DNA of 64,000 nucleotides, from assembly GCA_027078545.1 (NCBI GenBank), contig JALWXN010000004.1, positions 896,001 to 960,000 on the forward strand, written 5' to 3'. This DNA is from Nitrososphaeria archaeon. GTDB lineage: Archaea > Thermoproteota > Nitrososphaeria > Geothermarchaeales > JDFR-13. Below are positions 22,275-28,743 of the stretch, one piece after another. The translations under genes and the position numbers were made by a program. The stretch's first letter is position 1. Each line of letters starts with the position of its first letter. Under the pieces are notes generated by a model. The model made no database searches and had not been told where the DNA came from. It was given only the letters and a program-made list of their open reading frames with translations.

Positions 22275-22348
22275 CTCGAGACACCCCGTGGGGACAAGCC
22301 ATTATAAACACCCCAAGCCGGAATAATTATTTTAACACGCTCCGAGGG

Positions 22349-25042
22349 GTGGTCATTATTGAATACAACCTCAGGATCGGCCTCGAGGTACACATCCCAC
22401 TCTCAACAGTAGAGACCAAGCTGTTCTGCACCTGCCCAAACCCGTTCAGACATCCTCCTGAGAGGCCTAACCAGTACGTATGCCCCACATGCCTAGGCCT
22501 ACCCGGAGCCCTACCCAGCCCCAATATGGAGGCTATTAGGAAGGCGATAATCCTAGCGAAGGCCCTGAAGATGGAGATACCCAGGAAGATACAGTTCTAT
22601 AGGAAGCATTATCTATACCCAGACCTACCCAAGGGATACCAGATAACCCAGTACATGGCTGGTGGAGACCTCCCAATAGGGATTAGGGGAGGGATGCTCT
22701 TCAGGGAGAGGTATATAGGGATAAGGAGGATACAGCTGGAGGAGGATCCAGCCAAGCTGGAGCACCCAGGGGGGCTAGGCGAGTCGAGCAGGACGCTTAT
22801 CGACTATAACAGGTCTGGCGCCCCACTGATAGAGCTTGTTACTGAGCCCGAGCTATACAGCCCTAGGGAGGCTAGGATATTCATAGAGGAGCTGACCAGA
22901 CTCCTGGTCACCACGGGCATAATAGCTGAGGATACACAGCCAAAGGTGGATGCAAACATATCTATCGAGGGTGGGCCTAGGGTAGAGATCAAGAACATAT
23001 CCTCCCCAAGGGATGTGGAGAAGGCCCTGAGCTACGAGGCAATGAGGATGGCTAGATACATGGAGCAGGGTGTAAGGATCAGACGGGAGACGAGGCACTG
23101 GGACGATAGGAGGAGGGTCACGATACCCCTTAGGGAGAAGGAGTATGAGGAGGAGTATAGATACATACCCGATCCCAACCTCCCACCGATAGACATATCC
23201 GACATGATAGCCGAGGTCGAGGAGCCGGAGACCCCCCTGAAGATCCTGGAGAGACTCATCAGGGATGGGGTCGATGTATACCCGGCCAAGATCATAGCCT
23301 CGGACAAGAGGCTCCTAAGAATCTACGAGGAGGCCTCGGAGGGTCTTGGTAAAAAGGCTAGGATGGAGCTGGCGAAGACACTTGTAAACGAGGCTAAACA
23401 CATGCTCAACACAGGGAAGACTGTGGAGGAGCTCATAGAGACTATGAAGCCCCTATACCAGCTGGTGGATAAGGGCATCATCACCCCGGCAGAGGCGAGG
23501 AAGAAGCTCCTAGGGAGGAGGGGGCTGAGACAGGCCGACACAGGGGAGATACTCAAGACGCTTGAGGAAGTCCTCAGAGAGGTGGATCCAAGTAGGAGGA
23601 GGAGCCTAGACTACGTGGTCGGCACCGTGCTCAGGAGGCTCAGGGAGAGGGGGCTCGACGCAGATCCAAGGATTATTGCTGAGTATGCCCGTGGAAAGAT
23701 CGAGACTGCTAGGAAGATAGAGGTTAGGAGGGCTAGGGCTGGAGGGGAGAGGGTGTATAAGGGCGCCGTGGAGGCCCCTAGGCCGCTGGATCCCAGCCAG
23801 CTACCCAGCCTGGTTGGCTCAGAGGCGGTCATAGGCGGCTGGATAGAGACTCGGGCATACGTGGGGGACAAACTATTCCTAAGGCTCAGGCATTGGAGGG
23901 GCACTATACAGGTGGTGGCCCATGGGGATATCCGGGCCTACCAATACCTGTCGAGCCTCCCGAGAGAGGCATACATAGTCGTTAGGGGAAGGGTAGTCAG
24001 GGACTCCAGAGCCCCAGGCGGGCTAGAGATCCACGCATCAGAGGTAATCCCCATAGGTACATCCACCGACCCACCAATGACGCTGATGGACCTGGCCAGG
24101 TCAAGTCTCCCAACCAGGGTCAGGCATAGATACCTAGACATTAGGAGGCGTAGGGTAAGGGCTGTCCTATACATAAGGGCGAGGCTACTAGAGATCGTTA
24201 GGAGCCTCCTAACCAGGAAGGGCTTCGTGGAGATACAGACACCCACGATAATAGCCTCGGCCACGGAGGGAGGGGCGGAGCTATTCCCACTGATATACTA
24301 TGGTAGGGAGGCCTTCCTAGCCCAGAGCCCCCAGCTATATAAACAGATGGCTATAAACGCCTTCGAGAAGGTCTTCGAGATCGATAGCTACTACCGCGCC
24401 CAGAAGTTCGACACCCCACGCCACCTAGCGGAGTTCTGGTCCCTAGACGTCGAGGTCGCCCACCATGGGCTGGATGATCTGATCAGCCTAGCCAGGGAGA
24501 TACTCCTAGAGATACATGGGACGCTCCCCTCAAAGGCGGGTGACGAGCTCATGCTCCTAGGGGTTGAACTTGAGCCAGGGCCTAGCTTCGCGGAGATGAG
24601 TTATGACGAGGCTGTGGAGATATCGGGGACGAGGTATGGCGAGGACATCTCTGCAGAGGCGTTGAGAGAGGTGTATAGGGAGGCGGGCGCTAGATACCTG
24701 TTCATAACCCACTGGCCAGAGGAGACCAGGGCCTTCTACTACCGCTCGATAGACGGTATAACCAAGAGCTTCGACCTCGTAGGACCCTTCACAGGGACGC
24801 CTATAGAGCTCGCCAGTGGCGGGGAGAGGATAAACAGCTATGACGAGCTCGTCAGGAGCATAAGGAGGAGGGGTCTGAGGGAGGAATCGTATGGATGGTA
24901 CCTAGAGATGTTTAGGTATGGAATGCCCCCACACGGAGGCTTCGGGCTGGGGATAGACAGGCTACTAGCATCCCTCCTAGGCCTCGACTCAGTGCTGGAG
25001 GCCACTCTAGTGCCCAGGACGCCCAAGTACTACATCCCATAG
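22349..25042 (+). CDS. gatB-aspS: Fusion: Asp/Glu-tRNA amidotransferase subunit GatB + archaeal-type aspartyl-tRNA synthetase
   Basis: N-half: IGLEVH, TKLFC, CPTCLGLPGALP, YPDLPKGYQITQY, LEED, DYNRSGAPLIE, DANIS, VEIKN, YRYIPDPNLP. C-half: OB fold, RHRYLDIR, ATEGGAELF, LAQSPQLYKQ, RHLAEF, GMPPHGGFGLGIDR. Single uninterrupted ORF of 897 aa. Confidence 0.93.
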   Translation: MVIIEYNLRIGLEVHIPLSTVETKLFCTCPNPFRHPPERPNQYVCPTCLGLPGALPSPNMEAIRKAIILAKALKMEIPRKIQFYRKHYLYPDLPKGYQITQYMAGGDLPIGIRGGMLFRERYIGIRRIQLEEDPAKLEHPGGLGESSRTLIDYNRSGAPLIELVTEPELYSPREARIFIEELTRLLVTTGIIAEDTQPKVDANISIEGGPRVEIKNISSPRDVEKALSYEAMRMARYMEQGVRIRRETRHWDDRRRVTIPLREKEYEEEYRYIPDPNLPPIDISDMIAEVEEPETPLKILERLIRDGVDVYPAKIIASDKRLLRIYEEASEGLGKKARMELAKTLVNEAKHMLNTGKTVEELIETMKPLYQLVDKGIITPAEARKKLLGRRGLRQADTGEILKTLEEVLREVDPSRRRSLDYVVGTVLRRLRERGLDADPRIIAEYARGKIETARKIEVRRARAGGERVYKGAVEAPRPLDPSQLPSLVGSEAVIGGWIETRAYVGDKLFLRLRHWRGTIQVVAHGDIRAYQYLSSLPREAYIVVRGRVVRDSRAPGGLEIHASEVIPIGTSTDPPMTLMDLARSSLPTRVRHRYLDIRRRRVRAVLYIRARLLEIVRSLLTRKGFVEIQTPTIIASATEGGAELFPLIYYGREAFLAQSPQLYKQMAINAFEKVFEIDSYYRAQKFDTPRHLAEFWSLDVEVAHHGLDDLISLAREILLEIHGTLPSKAGDELMLLGVELEPGPSFAEMSYDEAVEISGTRYGEDISAEALREVYREAGARYLFITHWPEETRAFYYRSIDGITKSFDLVGPFTGTPIELASGGERINSYDELVRSIRRRGLREESYGWYLEMFRYGMPPHGGFGLGIDRLLASLLGLDSVLEATLVPRTPKYYIP

Positions 25043-25051
25043 GTGGTGCAT

Positions 25052-26470
25052 ATGCTGAAGCTACTAGACCTCTTCGAGGCGGACGACCCGATAAGCCTGA
25101 GCGAGAAGTACTATGAAAGGTTAAAGAGATGGGAGGAGAGGATAAACATCTTCATAACACTGAGGGAGTGGGGGGAGATCCAGCTTGTCCACGAGCCTGG
25201 TAAGCCCCTCTCAGGAGGCCTGATACCCGTCAAGGACAACATATCAACAAGGGGGGTGAGAACCACCTGTGGAAGCAGGATACTCGAGAACTACATACCC
25301 CCCTATGACGCCTATGCCGTGGAGAGGCTGGGGGAGATAGGCCTAAAAGTGGTTGGGAAGACCAATATGGACGAGTTCGGGATGGGGAGCACCGGGGAGA
25401 ACAGCGGGTATGGACCGACACGTAATCCATGGAACACCAGCCACGTCCCCGGGGGAAGCAGCTCAGGGAGCGCAGCAGCTGTAGCGGTGGCTGGCGGGAC
25501 TTCCCTCGGGAGCGATACTGGTGGTAGTGTCAGGCTACCAGCTGCATACTGCTACGTACTGGGTTTGAAGCCGACATACGGCCTGGTGAGCCGCTACGGA
25601 CTAGTATCCTACGCCGATAGCCTGGAGCAGATCGGGATACTCGCTAGATACCCGGAGGACATGGCCTACATACTATACCACATATCCAAGCTCGATAAGA
25701 GGGACATGACCATGCCACGTACAGAGGATAGGGAGGAGCTTAGGGAGAGGCTTATAAACCTCTACACCGGAGGAGCCGATGGGCTGGAGGGGTTGAGGAT
25801 AGGCTACTCCCCAGAACTGATAGAGATGGCCGACGATGCCGTGGCGAGGGAGGCATACCGGGCGCTGAATAAGCTGGTCGAGCTGGGGGTAGAGACCCTT
25901 GAGATAGACCTGGGATTCATGGAGGCAGGCCTACCCACCTACTACGCCATAGCTATGGCCGAGGCATCCTCGAACCTGATGAGGTACGACGGCGTCCTAT
26001 ACGGCTACATGGAGAGGGAGGGGGAATACTGGAGCAGCGTATATAGGACACGGGCGCTGAGGCTTGGAGAGGAGGTTAAGAGGCGCATCGTCTACGGCTC
26101 CCTAATAACCTCTGCAGGCTACAGTGGGAGGTACTACATAAAGGCGCTCAGGATAAGGAGGTGGATAAGGGACATGATGATAGATAGGCTTAGGAGGGTC
26201 GACGCCGTGCTGATGCCAACATCACCATCCACACCGCCCAGGCTCGGCGAGGTTGAGGGTGTGGACATGTATGCCCTAGACCTATACACAGTGATACCCA
26301 ACCTAACAGGCCATCCAGCCATAAACATCCCAGCCGGATTCGTGGGCGGCCTACCAGTGGGGATACAGCTTGTAACCAGTTATTTCAACGACGACCTATT
26401 GATAAGGATCGCCAAGGGGCTCGAGGGAGTCCTATACGACCCTTCAAAGGAGGTGGATACCGATGGATAG
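25052..26470 (+). CDS. gatA: Asp/Glu-tRNA amidotransferase subunit A
   Basis: VKDNI, GKTNMDEFGMGS, PGGSSSGSA, GSDTGGSVR, SSNLMRYDG, EVKRRI. ATG 25052 follows a GGTGGTG SD (ORF track gives 25043). Confidence 0.95.
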   Translation: MLKLLDLFEADDPISLSEKYYERLKRWEERINIFITLREWGEIQLVHEPGKPLSGGLIPVKDNISTRGVRTTCGSRILENYIPPYDAYAVERLGEIGLKVVGKTNMDEFGMGSTGENSGYGPTRNPWNTSHVPGGSSSGSAAAVAVAGGTSLGSDTGGSVRLPAAYCYVLGLKPTYGLVSRYGLVSYADSLEQIGILARYPEDMAYILYHISKLDKRDMTMPRTEDREELRERLINLYTGGADGLEGLRIGYSPELIEMADDAVAREAYRALNKLVELGVETLEIDLGFMEAGLPTYYAIAMAEASSNLMRYDGVLYGYMEREGEYWSSVYRTRALRLGEEVKRRIVYGSLITSAGYSGRYYIKALRIRRWIRDMMIDRLRRVDAVLMPTSPSTPPRLGEVEGVDMYALDLYTVIPNLTGHPAINIPAGFVGGLPVGIQLVTSYFNDDLLIRIAKGLEGVLYDPSKEVDTDG

Positions 26471-26729
26471 GGAGGATGTGGAGAAGGCCTTAAGACTAGC
26501 CGGTATAGGGGACGACCCTGAGAAATATATTGAGCAGCTGGAGAAAGTGGAGAGGCTCTTCAGCCAACTCGACAAGTGGCTCGACGAGGCTCCTGAGAGG
26601 CCTCTCTACCATCCCCTCGACATCAATACAGAGCCAAGGAGGGACGAGCCCAAAACCAGCGACACTAGCACCTGGATAGAGGGGGATGAGGAGGGCTATG
26701 TAGAGGCCCCACCCCTAAGACGTAGATAG
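26463..26729 (+). CDS. gatC: Amidotransferase subunit C (GatC-like)
   Basis: 88 aa, overlaps the gatA stop; ...LRLA..., RRDEP, GYVEAP pattern typical of GatC. Confidence 0.75.
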   Translation: MDREDVEKALRLAGIGDDPEKYIEQLEKVERLFSQLDKWLDEAPERPLYHPLDINTEPRRDEPKTSDTSTWIEGDEEGYVEAPPLRRR

Positions 26730-27194
26730 GCTCCCCAAGAGACTCTCAACATACCCCTCCTTAACACCCTCGGATACGATGTTGAGTATGAGCCTAGTAT
26801 GGGTCCGGTCGACATACTCGATCCTCTGAACCTCCTTTATGAAGCTGTCCAGCTCACTCCTGGTGCGGAACCATGCATAGAGGGTTATGTCATACTCACC
26901 AGTAATGTCATACACGGCCTGGACATTAGGCATCGATGCCAGTCGCTCCTCAACCTCCCTCAGGAAGCCGCCCCTAACCTTCACATCGATCATCACTGGG
27001 AAGATGTATCCAAGCTTCTCCAGGTCGATATCCACGGTATACCTCCTAATAACCCCCATGTCCTCAAGCCTCTTCCTCCTCGCCTCCACAGTTCCCACGG
27101 AGACGCCCAGCCTCCTAGAGAGTTCACGGCTACTTATACGCCCCTCCCTCAGGAGGATCGAGAGGATCTTGAGGTCCAGCCTATCCAGCTCCAT
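26715..27194 (-). CDS. Lrp/AsnC family transcriptional regulator
   Basis: LDRLDLKIL..L..EGR.S.RELSRRLGVS..TV..R...LE..GVI; YDITGEYD RAM domain. Start refined to ATG 27194. Confidence 0.93.
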   Translation of the reverse strand: MELDRLDLKILSILLREGRISSRELSRRLGVSVGTVEARRKRLEDMGVIRRYTVDIDLEKLGYIFPVMIDVKVRGGFLREVEERLASMPNVQAVYDITGEYDITLYAWFRTRSELDSFIKEVQRIEYVDRTHTRLILNIVSEGVKEGYVESLLGSLSTS

Positions 27195-27339
27195 ATGTAT
27201 CTCTATATGCACCGCCCTACATAAACAAATGTCCAGTTTAGAGTCGACTAGATGGATGAACATTAAACATGTGTCTAGATCCGTTTTATGACTGACCCGT
27301 GAGAAGCTCTTTACATATACATCCATGGGGTGGTAATCC

Positions 27340-28743
27340 TTGGACGAGGTTGTCGAGAAGGTATTCGAGGATATGGAGCTGAACAAGGTGAGGTGGGTAA
27401 CACTCACCTTCACAGACCTAAGGGGCTACCAGAAACAGGTCACGATCAAGAGAAAGCCAGAGAAGGAGTGGCTCGAGAAGCTCTTCAAACGGGGGGTGGG
27501 GAAGCTTGACGGGAGCAGTATCGAGGGGTTCCAAGACATATCGGAGAGCGACCTGATGCTGAGGCCCGACCCCACGACCTACGCGATACTCCCGTGGGCC
27601 GGGGACACCGCCAGGCTAATATCCAACATATTGATCAGGGGTGAGGACTATCCAAAGGACCCCAGGGGAGCCCTAGCCAAGACCGTGGAGAAGATGGGTC
27701 CATACATACCATTGATGGGTGCAGAGGTAGAGTTCTTCATACTCAACGGAATATCCACGGTTGTCAACGACCTGGAATATACATTCCTGACAAGCCTGGA
27801 GACGCTCGAGGCACCAGTTACACAGGGATATCCCTACAGGCCGAAGACCGGGTACTACATGGAGTGGGGCCTCGACACTGTGATAGGCTTTAGGAGGAGG
27901 CTGGTAGAGGTGCTGGAGGGCTGGTTCGGGATGGAGGTCGAGAGCCACCACCACGAGGTGGCCATAGCTGGGCAGAGCGAGATAAACATCAGGTATGGAG
28001 ACCCCGTCTCCACGGCGGACAACGTGATGACCCTGAAATACGTGGCCCGTGTACTGGCTAGGGAGGAGTATGGGGGCATAACACCCCTCTTCATGCCTAA
28101 ACCCATACCTACCGATAACGGCTCAGGCCTACACATGCATATAAGCCTCGTGAGGGATGGTAGGAACATCTTCTACGACCCAGACGACGAGTATGCACAT
28201 CTAAGCCAGGAGGCCAGGTACTTCATAGGTGGGCTGCTCGAGCATGGACGGGCATTGTCAGCACTGGTCTCCCCAACAGTCAACAGCTACCATAGACTAG
28301 TCCCAGGCTACGAGGCACCGATATACCTGACATGGGGAAGGTCCAACAGGAGCGCGGCTGTCAGGGTACCATTCTACGACCCCGAGAGTAGGAATGCGAA
28401 GCTGGAGTATAGACCCCCAGACCCGTCATGCAACCCATACATAGCCATGGCAGGGATACTCGCGGCTGGCATGGACGGATTAAAGAAGAAGAGGGATCCA
28501 GGGCCACCGGTCGATGAGAACGTTTATAAAATGCCTAAGCAGAGGGTTAGGGAGCTGGGTATAAAGACCCTACCAGCCAGCCTACTAGAGGCTCTGGAGG
28601 AGCTGGAGAGCGACATGACATTCCTCGAGAAGTATATCCCGAGGGAGCTCCTAGAGAGCTATATAGAGCTCAAGAGGGAGGAGGCCAAGACACTGGCTAA
28701 GTACCCATCCCCCGCCGAGTTCCAGCTATACTCATCCCTATAG
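27340..28743 (+). CDS. glnA: Glutamine synthetase type I
   Basis: DGSSIEGF..I.ESDL, GAEVEFF, HHEVA..GQ.EI, FMPKP...DNGSGLHMH, NSYHRLVPGYEAP, NRSAAVRVP, EYRPPDP. Confidence 0.97.
   Translation: MDEVVEKVFEDMELNKVRWVTLTFTDLRGYQKQVTIKRKPEKEWLEKLFKRGVGKLDGSSIEGFQDISESDLMLRPDPTTYAILPWAGDTARLISNILIRGEDYPKDPRGALAKTVEKMGPYIPLMGAEVEFFILNGISTVVNDLEYTFLTSLETLEAPVTQGYPYRPKTGYYMEWGLDTVIGFRRRLVEVLEGWFGMEVESHHHEVAIAGQSEINIRYGDPVSTADNVMTLKYVARVLAREEYGGITPLFMPKPIPTDNGSGLHMHISLVRDGRNIFYDPDDEYAHLSQEARYFIGGLLEHGRALSALVSPTVNSYHRLVPGYEAPIYLTWGRSNRSAAVRVPFYDPESRNAKLEYRPPDPSCNPYIAMAGILAAGMDGLKKKRDPGPPVDENVYKMPKQRVRELGIKTLPASLLEALEELESDMTFLEKYIPRELLESYIELKREEAKTLAKYPSPAEFQLYSSL

What the first reader, a model, noticed from the sequence alone, without database searches (positions are those of the whole stretch)
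22349..26729. GatB fused to an aspartyl-tRNA synthetase: a covalently pre-assembled transamidosome
Seen: one 897-aa ORF holds a complete GatB with a shortened helical tail, a basic linker (about 23690-23800) and a full class IIb synthetase, followed by gatA and gatC. QSPQLYKQ and SGGER indicate Asp rather than Asn specificity. The anticodon-domain loop RAPGG has the Pro associated with non-discriminating AspRS. Known: ND-AspRS, GatCAB and tRNA-Asn form a non-covalent transamidosome that channels Asp-tRNA(Asn). Inference: the fusion hard-wires this channelling and may dedicate the AspRS to tRNA(Asn). I recall a similar fusion being annotated in some bacteria, but I do not know of a characterised archaeal case.
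Basis: partly seen in the sequence, partly recalled or inferred. Interest (0 to 1): 0.78.

Follow-up and report, generated by a model that had tools for sequence, protein, structure and literature searches.

The report
GatB fused to aspartyl-tRNA synthetase
A heat-vent archaeon makes, as one protein chain, the two enzymes that first put aspartate on the asparagine tRNA and then convert it to asparagine; this natural fusion is conserved in a small group of archaea, and I found no paper that studies it.

Summary
Window 22349-25042 (+) is one open 897-aa gene. It encodes a catalytically intact GatB with a trimmed tail, then a 25-50-residue disordered linker, then a complete archaeal-type AspRS. 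gatA and gatC follow, then a divergent Lrp/AsnC regulator and glnA.

It is not an assembly artefact. Independent assemblies and a second-sample contig bridge the linker without indels. Full-length homologues at 42-93% identity exist in about 30 protein clusters.

In GTDB-style sampling the fusion occurs in 10 of 13 genomes of the window's family. It was in 0 of 387 other genomes of the class and 1 of 400 in the phylum. It also occurs in Baldrarchaeia.

In fact the genome also has a stand-alone discriminating-type AspRS and a true AsnRS, but no recognisable AsnA or AsnB. The fused machine is therefore best read as a hard-wired route for tRNA-dependent asparagine synthesis, like Thermus or Deinococcus AspRS2+GatCAB. 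Its AspRS accepts tRNA(Asn) and may be dedicated to it.

The AspRS half is a deep lineage lying between canonical archaeal AspRS and AsnRS.

This scan has met the same fusion family before on other DNA, along with bacterial analogues. I found no paper on it.

The parts
22323..22336 (+). A/T-rich box (aataattatttta) 13-26 nt upstream of the GTG start. Possible archaeal TATA element for a short-leader or leaderless transcript. Tentative.
   Evidence: Sequence read. No promoter model for archaea was available, and the sigma-70 scan is not informative.
22349..25042 (+). gatB::aspS fusion gene, 897 aa.
22349..23209 (+). GatB cradle (kinase/amidotransferase catalytic) domain, residues 1-287.
   Evidence: Pfam GatB_N at 273 bits. 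The family-invariant residues include YRKHYxYPDLPKGYQI, EEDPA, DYNRSG..E..T.P, D.N.S and R.EIKN. Foldseek matches GatB chains 3kfu_F/I, 3h0l_B and 2g5i_B.
23210..23734 (+). GatB helical domain plus shortened YqeY-like tail, residues 288-462.
   Evidence: Alignment A3 with stand-alone GatBs. AlphaFold predicts helices 296-462. Pfam GatB_Yqey is not detected here but is weakly detected in the Baldrarchaeia homologue.
23735..23812 (+). Disordered, charged linker, residues about 463-488. The poorly conserved stretch begins at about residue 448.
   Evidence: pLDDT is below 50 at 453-474. Length is 43-65 aa and the sequence is not conserved across 26 homologues. Bridged by contigs of two samples.
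23813..24064 (+). AspRS anticodon-binding OB domain, residues 489-572. It includes GWIE (E500 at the T. kodakarensis W26 site) and RAPGG (P556 at the K85 site; nt 24008-24022).
   Evidence: Pfam tRNA_anti-codon. Alignments to 1wyd, 1n9w and 3nel. Motif table.
24113..25027 (+). AspRS class II catalytic core, residues 589-893. Motif 1 is P632. QSPQLYKQ is at 659-666 (nt 24323-24346). Motif 2 is R683-A-Q685. SGGER is at 823-827 (nt 24815-24829). Motif 3 is GFGLGIDR at 864-871.
   Evidence: Pfam tRNA-synt_2 at 238 bits. NF003483 is above its cut-off. Invariant columns. Foldseek matches 1wyd and 3kfu_A-D.
25043..26470 (+). gatA (glutaminase subunit). The likely start is the ATG at 25052, as called in close relatives. 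The Ser-cisSer-Lys signature is intact (VKDNIST, GGSSSGSAAAVA, GSDTGGSVR).
26463..26729 (+). gatC, 88 aa, overlapping the end of gatA by 8 nt.
   Evidence: Weak GatC hits (Pfam E 0.0085; TIGR00135 E 0.002). The same position and size are seen in homologous loci.
26715..27413 (-). Lrp/AsnC-family transcription regulator, convergent on gatC. The true start is probably internal: relatives-203 aa, and the HTH begins at residue 76 of the longest ORF.
   Evidence: Pfam HTH_24/HTH_AsnC-type plus AsnC_trans_reg. The position is conserved in loci at 93% and 48% identity.
27340..28743 (+). glnA, glutamine synthetase, which supplies the amide donor of GatA. Conserved neighbour.
   Evidence: Pfam Gln-synt_N and Gln-synt_C. 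The same neighbour is present in L084-L087.

Best explanation
The gene encodes a natural single-chain GatB-AspRS. AspRS is an obligate class II dimer, and GatB binds GatA and GatC. The operon should therefore build a (GatB~AspRS)2.GatA2.GatC2 particle, that is, an asparagine transamidosome whose synthetase and amidotransferase are tethered 1:1 by a flexible 25-50-residue linker.

Proposed mechanism. The AspRS half reads the GUU anticodon of tRNA(Asn) and esterifies Asp. The CCA end then swings to the GatB kinase/amidotransferase site. That site uses ammonia tunnelled from GatA-hydrolysed glutamine, with glnA next door, to give Asn-tRNA(Asn).

The genome also has a discriminating-type AspRS for tRNA(Asp) and a true AsnRS, but no recognisable AsnA or AsnB. 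The main job of the fused machine is therefore probably tRNA-dependent asparagine synthesis, with AsnRS re-using free Asn.

Shown: the architecture, intact catalytic motifs, conservation, operon, paralogue inventory and the ND/AsnRS-type Pro in the anticodon loop.

Inferred: complex stoichiometry, tRNA(Asn) charging, channelling, and the idea that the tether replaces the scaffold tRNA of the Thermus particle. Whether the AspRS half rejects tRNA(Asp) is open; I put it at about 50%.
For: Architecture and intact motifs in both halves come. Foldseek hits both the AspRS and the GatB chains of the solved Thermus transamidosome 3KFU. The GatA triad motifs are present.

The fusion is conserved with full coverage at 42-93% identity in about 30 clusters. 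It occurs in 10 of 13 genomes of the family with no internal stops. The linker is bridged in two samples.

The operon gatB::aspS-gatA-gatC-(lrp)-glnA is conserved from 93% down to 48% identity.

Paralogue inventory. The stand-alone AspRS has Lys at the K85 site and a shortened L1 loop, and its best PDB hit is the T. kodakarensis AspRS. AsnRS gives 477 bits to 1X54. GatDE is present for Gln. No AsnA or AsnB scores above cut-off in this genome.

The fused AspRS has Pro at the K85 site, like the proteins that databases annotate as aspartate--tRNA(Asn) ligase and like AsnRS.

There is one tRNA-Asn(GUU) gene and one tRNA-Asp(GUC) gene. They differ in D-loop size (8 vs 10 nt), and the D-loop is a known archaeal GatCAB discriminator (PMC2330236).

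Precedents. T. thermophilus and D. radiodurans keep AsnRS plus an extra archaeal-type ND-AspRS plus GatCAB (PMC4206432). The Thermus particle is tRNA-scaffolded (PMC3367201).
Against: No biochemical data exist for any member. The second ND marker (His at the W26 site) is Glu, the same as in the genome's own discriminating-type AspRS. Motif 2 reads RAQ instead of the usual RAE in the Thermoproteota-type fusions, and the effect is unknown.

The GatB tail that normally reads the tRNA core is trimmed and its Lys-rich motif is altered.

A 376-aa protein with only the AsnB synthetase-like domain exists. The MAG is 92% complete, so an alternative Asn route cannot be excluded.

Within the family, presence of the fusion does not cleanly anticorrelate with AsnB or AsnA-like genes.

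The fused gene is only 53% identical between two congeneric genomes whose AspRS and AsnRS are 73-77% identical. This could mean relaxed constraint.
Confidence: 0.72

Rival explanations
1. Neutral fusion of operon neighbours. The AspRS half is an ordinary non-discriminating enzyme that charges both tRNA(Asp) and tRNA(Asn). The floppy tether gives no kinetic or fidelity benefit; a lost stop codon between gatB and aspS simply became fixed.
For: In Baldrarchaeia the order is gatC-gatA-gatB::aspS, the expected product of stop-codon loss in a gatCAB-aspS operon. Adjacent but unfused gatB-aspS exists in a Spirochaete. The linker is unconserved and disordered. The W26-site residue is the same Glu as in the D-type paralogue.
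Against: The fusion has been kept intact down to about 42% identity and across at least two phyla. The GatB halves form one clade (SH-aLRT 99). Fusions of AspRS to GatB, GatA or GatC arose independently several times, which argues for a selective advantage. The GatB tail was trimmed after fusion, suggesting functional integration. Every fusion-bearing genome examined also keeps a separate D-type AspRS.
Confidence: 0.17
2. The AspRS half no longer aminoacylates. It acts only as an anticodon-reading tRNA(Asn)-binding module that delivers tRNA to GatB, or it is an AsnA-like amino-acid amidating enzyme.
For: Motif 2 carries the Glu-to-Gln change (RAQ) in the Thermoproteota-type fusions. AsnA-type enzymes are known derivatives of archaeal AspRS (Roy et al. 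2003, cited in PMC4206432).
Against: The motif 1 Pro, motif 2 Arg, motif 3 Arg, QSPQLYKQ, D/E of DVE and SGGER are all invariant. The OB anticodon domain is retained, unlike in AsnA. The only other AspRS in the genome is discriminating-type, so nothing else would make Asp-tRNA(Asn) for GatCAB. The Baldrarchaeia members keep RAE.
Confidence: 0.06
3. Assembly or frameshift artefact, or a decaying pseudogene.
For: The genome is a metagenome-assembled genome. The fused gene is unusually diverged between congeners.
Against: Identical-length ORFs occur in independent assemblies (GCA_027060065.1, GCA_015523545.1 and a Logan run). A second-sample contig bridges the linker with 0 gaps. There are no internal stops in 11 genomes. 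Catalytic residues are invariant.
Confidence: 0.02

Closest known systems
Thermus thermophilus Asn-transamidosome (archaeal-type ND-AspRS2 + GatCAB + tRNA(Asn); PDB 3KFU)
   Same: It has the same four protein activities. It uses the same archaeal-type AspRS without a GAD domain. Both halves of the model match 3KFU chains. The genomic logic is the same: AsnRS and a discriminating AspRS coexist with the indirect route, which serves Asn synthesis (PMC4206432).
   Different: There the parts are separate polypeptides held together by tRNA, including a non-substrate scaffold tRNA (PMC3367201). Here GatB and AspRS are one chain, which fixes a 1:1 ratio. The GatB tail is trimmed. The AspRS belongs to a different, deep lineage, and the W26-site residue is Glu rather than His.
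Bacterial GatB-AspRS fusions (about 1100-1180 aa, bacterial-type AspRS with GAD domain), e.g. P0046 and P0060
   Same: The N-to-C order is the same: GatB cradle, YqeY tail, OB domain, class II core.
   Different: They arose independently. Their GatB halves branch elsewhere and their AspRS is the bacterial type (NF001750 at 711-776 bits). Their tail is full length. An earlier scan note says NCBI names these 'bifunctional amidotransferase subunit GatB/aspartate--tRNA ligase AspS'. I could not verify the name, and NCBIfam release 20 holds no such model.
AspRS-GatC fusion (NCBIfam NF009460 / PRK12820) and GatA-AspRS fusion (P0103, Spirochaetes)
   Same: Each is a covalent link between AspRS and a GatCAB subunit.
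   Different: A different subunit is fused, at a different end of AspRS. They occur in bacterial lineages.
Operon-linked ND-aspS next to gatB in other families of the same class
   Same: These genomes have a second aspS with Pro in the L1 loop encoded beside gatB, plus a separate D-type aspS.
   Different: They are not fused. Their ND-AspRS sits inside the canonical archaeal AspRS clade, whereas the fused AspRS does not. Those genomes show no AsnRS.

Membership tests
GatB (Asp-tRNA(Asn)/Glu-tRNA(Gln) amidotransferase subunit B) | Curated HMM score above cut-off | tested here: met
   NF004012 scores 384 bits against a cut-off of 338. TIGR00133 scores 334.8 against 314.8.
GatB (Asp-tRNA(Asn)/Glu-tRNA(Gln) amidotransferase subunit B) | Conserved cradle-domain catalytic, metal and ATP residues | tested here: met
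   GLEVH, YRKHYxYPDLPKGYQI, EEDPA, DYNRSG.PL.E..T.P, DANxS and R.EIKN are invariant in the 26 fused homologues.
GatB (Asp-tRNA(Asn)/Glu-tRNA(Gln) amidotransferase subunit B) | C-terminal helical plus YqeY tail domain with a Lys-rich tRNA-core-binding motif | tested here: inconclusive
   Pfam PF02637 is not detected. The alignment shows a homologous but shortened tail. The motif K.TKGKADP is replaced by RRLRERGLDADP.
GatB (Asp-tRNA(Asn)/Glu-tRNA(Gln) amidotransferase subunit B) | Partner genes gatA and gatC | tested here: met
   They lie immediately downstream, and the GatA triad motifs are intact.
Archaeal-type non-discriminating AspRS (aspartate--tRNA(Asn) ligase) | Curated HMM score above cut-off | tested here: inconclusive
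   NF003483 scores 390 bits against 353, which is met. TIGR00458 scores 321.9 against 368.4, which is not met.
Archaeal-type non-discriminating AspRS (aspartate--tRNA(Asn) ligase) | Asp-specific active site (QSPQ..K, D.E, GGxR) and class II motifs 1-3 | tested here: met
   The one exception is motif 2, which reads RAQ rather than RAE.
Archaeal-type non-discriminating AspRS (aspartate--tRNA(Asn) ligase) | L1-loop Pro at the T. kodakarensis K85 site. The ND marker is recalled from Feng et al. 2003 and Charron et al. 2003, which were not retrievable here. | tested here: met
   P556 in RAPGG is invariant in the family. The own stand-alone AspRS has Lys there.
Archaeal-type non-discriminating AspRS (aspartate--tRNA(Asn) ligase) | His at the T. 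kodakarensis W26 site (second recalled ND marker) | tested here: not met
   It is Glu500 here and Gln in the Baldrarchaeia members. Sulfolobales, Ignisphaera and Thermus ND enzymes have His.
Archaeal-type non-discriminating AspRS (aspartate--tRNA(Asn) ligase) | Membership of the canonical archaeal AspRS clade | tested here: not met
   Canonical archaeal AspRS, both D and ND types, form a clade (SH-aLRT 99) that excludes the fused domains.
Archaeal-type non-discriminating AspRS (aspartate--tRNA(Asn) ligase) | Aspartylation of tRNA(Asn) in vitro or in vivo | not testable with these tools
   This needs an enzyme assay.
AsnRS | Curated HMM above cut-off and an Asn-type active site (Lys of QSPQLYK replaced; E.E instead of D.E) | tested here: not met
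   NF003037 scores 238 bits against 414. The fused domain keeps K665 and DVE. The genome's real AsnRS has QSSQFYEE and EAE.
Asn-transamidosome (AspRS.GatCAB.tRNA(Asn) particle) | All components are encoded, including a tRNA(Asn) distinguishable from tRNA(Asp) by GatCAB | tested here: met
   The operon is shown. One tRNA-Asn(GUU) has an 8-nt D-loop and one tRNA-Asp(GUC) has a 10-nt D-loop. The variable loops are both 5 nt, so the published variable-loop rule (PMC2330236) does not apply here.
Asn-transamidosome (AspRS.GatCAB.tRNA(Asn) particle) | Physical complex and substrate hand-over | not testable with these tools
   This needs biochemistry or a structure.

The most novel reading that the evidence does not exclude
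The AspRS half is not a recently captured housekeeping enzyme. It would be a survivor of a deep lineage of GatCAB-associated, tRNA(Asn)-directed AspRS that is the closest aspartate-charging relative of AsnRS, in effect the kind of enzyme from which AsnRS evolved. If so, the fused protein would be tRNA(Asn)-specific: an 'AspRS(Asn)', the counterpart of H. pylori GluRS2 for tRNA(Gln). The covalent particle would then be a living model of the step before direct asparaginylation.

Support. An unrooted split (SH-aLRT 99) puts the fused domains with AsnRS and away from all canonical archaeal AspRS. The two share signatures (RAPGG, EFW, C-terminal PRTP). The OB domain is slightly closer to AsnRS (36% identity, against 29-33% to AspRS).

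Not excluded, not shown. The root is unresolved (AU p = 0.5), AsnRS sampling was narrow, and the trees were quick searches.
Probability: 0.2. Interest if true: 0.85.

Novelty: new variant of a known kind. Interest (0 to 1): 0.6.

Why it matters
Transamidosomes exist to stop mischarged Asp-tRNA(Asn) from reaching the ribosome. All studied ones are non-covalent and mostly tRNA-glued. A natural thermostable single-chain version fixes the stoichiometry and proximity of the two active sites. That makes it a clean system for asking how much channelling owes to tethering: cut the linker and compare. It also makes the 3'-end swing between the two sites accessible to structural study.

The genomic setting is a D-type AspRS, an AsnRS and the fused machine, with no asparagine synthetase found. 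This extends to archaea the Thermus/Deinococcus logic that the indirect route survives as the cell's asparagine biosynthesis.

AspRS has been fused independently to GatB (archaeal and bacterial types), GatA and GatC. This says that covalent coupling of this pathway is repeatedly favoured.

If the AspRS half proves tRNA(Asn)-specific and sister to AsnRS, it bears directly on how asparagine entered the genetic code.

Tried and rejected
1. Complex prediction on the two halves (residues 1-462 vs 486-897, family alignment) returned 'no answer', score 0.00. I do not use it as evidence either way.

2. The look-up of sequencing runs listed no RNA holder, so expression and co-transcription could not be examined. 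Only Logan contigs were available, not raw reads.

It returned mostly unfused genes and did not name the close relatives. I used the genome search instead.

4. I tested the idea that the fusion and asparagine synthetases are mutually exclusive within the family, and it is not clean. Canonical AsnB occurs only in one genus, which also has the fusion. A core-only AsnA-like paralogue is in one fusion-less genome (G007). G009 shows neither, with these queries.

5. I tried rooting the class IIb tree with bacterial AspRS. The free tree puts the fused domains and AsnRS in one clade. A tree with the root on the AsnRS side is equally likely (AU p = 0.5), so I make no rooted claim.

6. Literature searches for the fusion found nothing on it. 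I searched GatB-AspRS and variants, 'fused', 'bifunctional amidotransferase subunit GatB', and the accession numbers. Searches for K85P and W26H found no held paper, so those markers rest on my memory. PMC2944067 and PMC4299244 are not held.

7. aragorn's second 'tRNA-Asn' (C4:109713-109800) is rejected. Read with the canonical 37/38 intron it has anticodon GUG, discriminator C73 and an encoded G-1, so it is tRNA-His.

8. An Rfam scan of locus L001 was irrelevant and empty.

9. I could not name the organism. An earlier scan note calls it Geothermarchaeota, which I did not check.

Full report
**Observation**

Window 22349-25042 (+) is a single open frame of 897 codons with a GTG start; homologues start M/V-V-T/I-I-E-Y at the same place.
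- Pfam places GatB_N at residues 9-287, the aaRS OB anticodon domain at 494-569 and the class II Asp/Lys/Asn core at 589-891.
- NCBIfam scores both halves above curated cut-offs: GatB NF004012 at 384 against 338, and aspartate--tRNA(Asn) ligase NF003483 at 390 against 353.
- gatA follows at 25043/25052-26470 and keeps the amidase-signature triad motifs.
- An 88-aa gatC follows at 26463-26729 and overlaps gatA by 8 nt.
- Next come a convergent Lrp/AsnC regulator (26715-27413, minus strand) and glnA (27340-28743).

**Is it real?**

Identical-length 897-aa ORFs are on record from independent assemblies: two NCBI MAGs and a Logan run.
- Contigs laid on the stretch bridge the linker in two hydrothermal-vent samples. 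One is identical. The other is a related strain with 36 substitutions and no gap over 23269-24083.
- A search of 5.8 billion proteins found about 30 clusters with the same full-length architecture at 40-93% identity.
- An alignment of 26 of them keeps every catalytic block of both halves invariant, while the linker is free to vary.
- The frame is open, with no internal stop, in 11 genomes.

**Anatomy**

The AlphaFold2 model (mean pLDDT 77) has four parts:
- a GatB cradle;
- a helical domain and three tail helices up to about residue 462;
- a disordered segment with pLDDT below 50 at 453-474;
- the OB fold and class II core.

Foldseek matches S. tokodaii AspRS 1WYD. It also matches both the AspRS chains and the GatB chains of the Thermus transamidosome 3KFU.

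Against stand-alone GatBs the tail is homologous but trimmed. It has a deletion of about 10 residues in the YqeY part and another of about 14-24 residues in the helical domain. The Lys-rich motif that PMC2811023 links to tRNA-core recognition has become RRLRER-GLDADP. The Baldrarchaeia homologues keep a more canonical tail.

The spacer between the last tail helix and the first OB strand is 43-65 residues long. It is charged but not consistently basic.

**Which tRNA does the AspRS half serve?**

The Asp-specific residues (QSPQLYKQ, DVE, SGGER) and class II motifs 1-3 are invariant. The one oddity is motif 2, which reads RAQ instead of RAE in the Thermoproteota-type members.

In the anticodon domain, the L1 loop reads RAPGG. 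Pro556 sits at the T. kodakarensis K85 position. Pro is also found there in S. tokodaii and T. thermophilus AspRS2, in the database-annotated tRNA(Asn) ligases, and in AsnRS. The discriminating T. kodakarensis enzyme has Lys. The link between these two sites and discrimination comes from my memory of Feng et al. 2003 and Charron et al. 2003; I could not retrieve those papers. The second marker is not met: Glu500 replaces the ND-type His.

**Genome context changes the reading**

The 1.24-Mb genome is 92% complete and encodes three class IIb paralogues.
- The fused domain.
- A stand-alone AspRS. Its best PDB hit is T. kodakarensis AspRS at 346 bits. It has a shortened L1 loop with Lys at the K85 site, so it is discriminating-type.
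- A genuine AsnRS. It scores 477 bits to P. horikoshii AsnRS against 272 to AspRS, and has QSSQFYEE.

GatDE is present for Gln. No AsnA or AsnB reaches its cut-off. The only related proteins are a 376-aa protein with just the synthetase-like domain, a GlmS-like protein and PP-loop enzymes.

This is the Thermus/Deinococcus situation. There an extra archaeal-type ND-AspRS plus GatCAB coexist with AsnRS and provide asparagine (PMC4206432).

There is one tRNA-Asn(GUU) and one tRNA-Asp(GUC). They differ in D-loop length (8 vs 10 nt), a known archaeal GatCAB discriminator, but not in variable-loop length. aragorn's second 'tRNA-Asn' is a tRNA-His.

**Distribution and origin**

Counts of genomes with the fusion:
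- 10 of 13 genomes of the window's family;
- 0 of 387 sampled genomes in 19 other families of the class;
- 1 of 400 sampled genomes across the phylum.

One named source is a Baldrarchaeia MAG. In 1.84 billion 50%-identity representatives, only about five clusters carry the archaeal full-length form.

The GatB halves of all archaeal fusions form one clade (SH-aLRT 99) inside archaeal GatB. Bacterial GatB-AspRS fusions branch elsewhere.

In Baldrarchaeia the order is gatC-gatA-gatB::aspS. This suggests stop-codon loss in a gatCAB-aspS operon, followed by rearrangement to gatB::aspS-gatA-gatC in the Thermoproteota-type loci.

Other families of the class keep an unfused ND-type aspS beside gatB, plus a D-type aspS and no AsnRS.

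The fused AspRS domains are not related to those ND enzymes. All canonical archaeal AspRS form a clade (SH-aLRT 99) that excludes the fused domains. The fused domains lie on the AsnRS side of the tree and share RAPGG, EFW and C-terminal PRTP with AsnRS. The root is unresolved (AU p = 0.5), so I claim only the unrooted position.

**Mechanism (inference)**

Class II AspRS dimerises, and GatB binds GatA and GatC. The operon should therefore give a 2:2:2 particle with synthetase and amidotransferase tethered 1:1.

Known Asn-transamidosomes are held together by tRNA. The Thermus one, built on an archaeal-type AspRS, uses an extra scaffold tRNA (PMC3367201; PMC9499178). A covalent tether could replace that scaffold and keep Asp-tRNA(Asn) from escaping at high temperature.

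Trimming of the GatB tail after fusion fits a reduced need for GatB's own tRNA affinity.

glnA and an Lrp/AsnC regulator as conserved neighbours fit a nitrogen-responsive Asn-synthesis module.

**Comparison and novelty**

Covalent links between AspRS and GatCAB subunits are catalogued or visible in databases:
- AspRS-GatC (NCBIfam NF009460);
- bacterial GatB-AspRS (P0046, P0060);
- GatA-AspRS (P0103).

Earlier notes of this scan report the same archaeal family in another genome and several bacterial analogues. I found no paper that describes or tests any GatB-AspRS fusion.

I rate it a new variant of a known kind. It is real, conserved and uncharacterised, with a predictable core function. The open and interesting questions are its tRNA specificity and its relation to AsnRS.

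Noticed in passing
window:21339-22274 (-): A 311-aa ORF is transcribed divergently from the fusion gene. Its only Pfam hit is sub-threshold, to tRNA_SAD, the Thr/Ala-tRNA synthetase editing-associated domain (21 bits). It may be an AlaX-like trans-editing protein beside the transamidosome operon. The ORF is conserved in the 93%-identical loci but not in the 48% one.
   Followed up: partly
G000:C4:109713-109800 (outside the window): ARAGORN calls this tRNA-Asn(GTT) with an odd 35/36 intron. Read with a canonical 37/38 intron it is tRNA-His(GUG), with C73 and an encoded G-1. Its acceptor stem is identical to that of the true tRNA-Asn.
   Followed up: yes
G000 contig C4 (whole genome): All tRNA genes that ARAGORN finds on the 1.14-Mb contig lie in its first 510 kb. 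None lies in the remaining 630 kb, including this window. Several isoacceptors (Gln, Trp, Lys-UUU and others) were not found at all, perhaps because of multiple or non-canonical introns or split genes.
   Followed up: no
P0099 (803 aa, Logan assembly): A complete GatB with a full YqeY tail is fused at its C-terminus to an asparaginase/GatD-like glutaminase domain. This is a GatB-GatD-type chimera that would bypass GatA.
   Followed up: partly
P0174, P0183, P0210 (about 419 aa; one named Desulfurococcales 'aspartate--tRNA(Asn) ligase'): These form a distinct class IIb clade that groups with AsnRS rather than with canonical AspRS. Their motifs are unusual (YGHVE.., QS(S/G)QLYKQ, EWSSGGLREH, PRTPD) and there is no Pro in the L1 loop. 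The amino-acid and tRNA specificity is unclear.
   Followed up: no
G003:C29:40228-42969 compared with window:22349-25042: Two genomes placed in the same genus share only 53% identity in the fused protein, but 77% in stand-alone AspRS and 73% in AsnRS. The fusion gene is either evolving much faster or was replaced by a xenologue in one lineage.
   Followed up: partly
G007:C6:1612952-1613848: A fusion-less member of the family carries a 329-aa core-only AspRS/AsnRS paralogue. It scores 214 bits to the archaeal AsnA model, below the cut-off. It may be the alternative asparagine synthetase in that lineage.
   Followed up: partly
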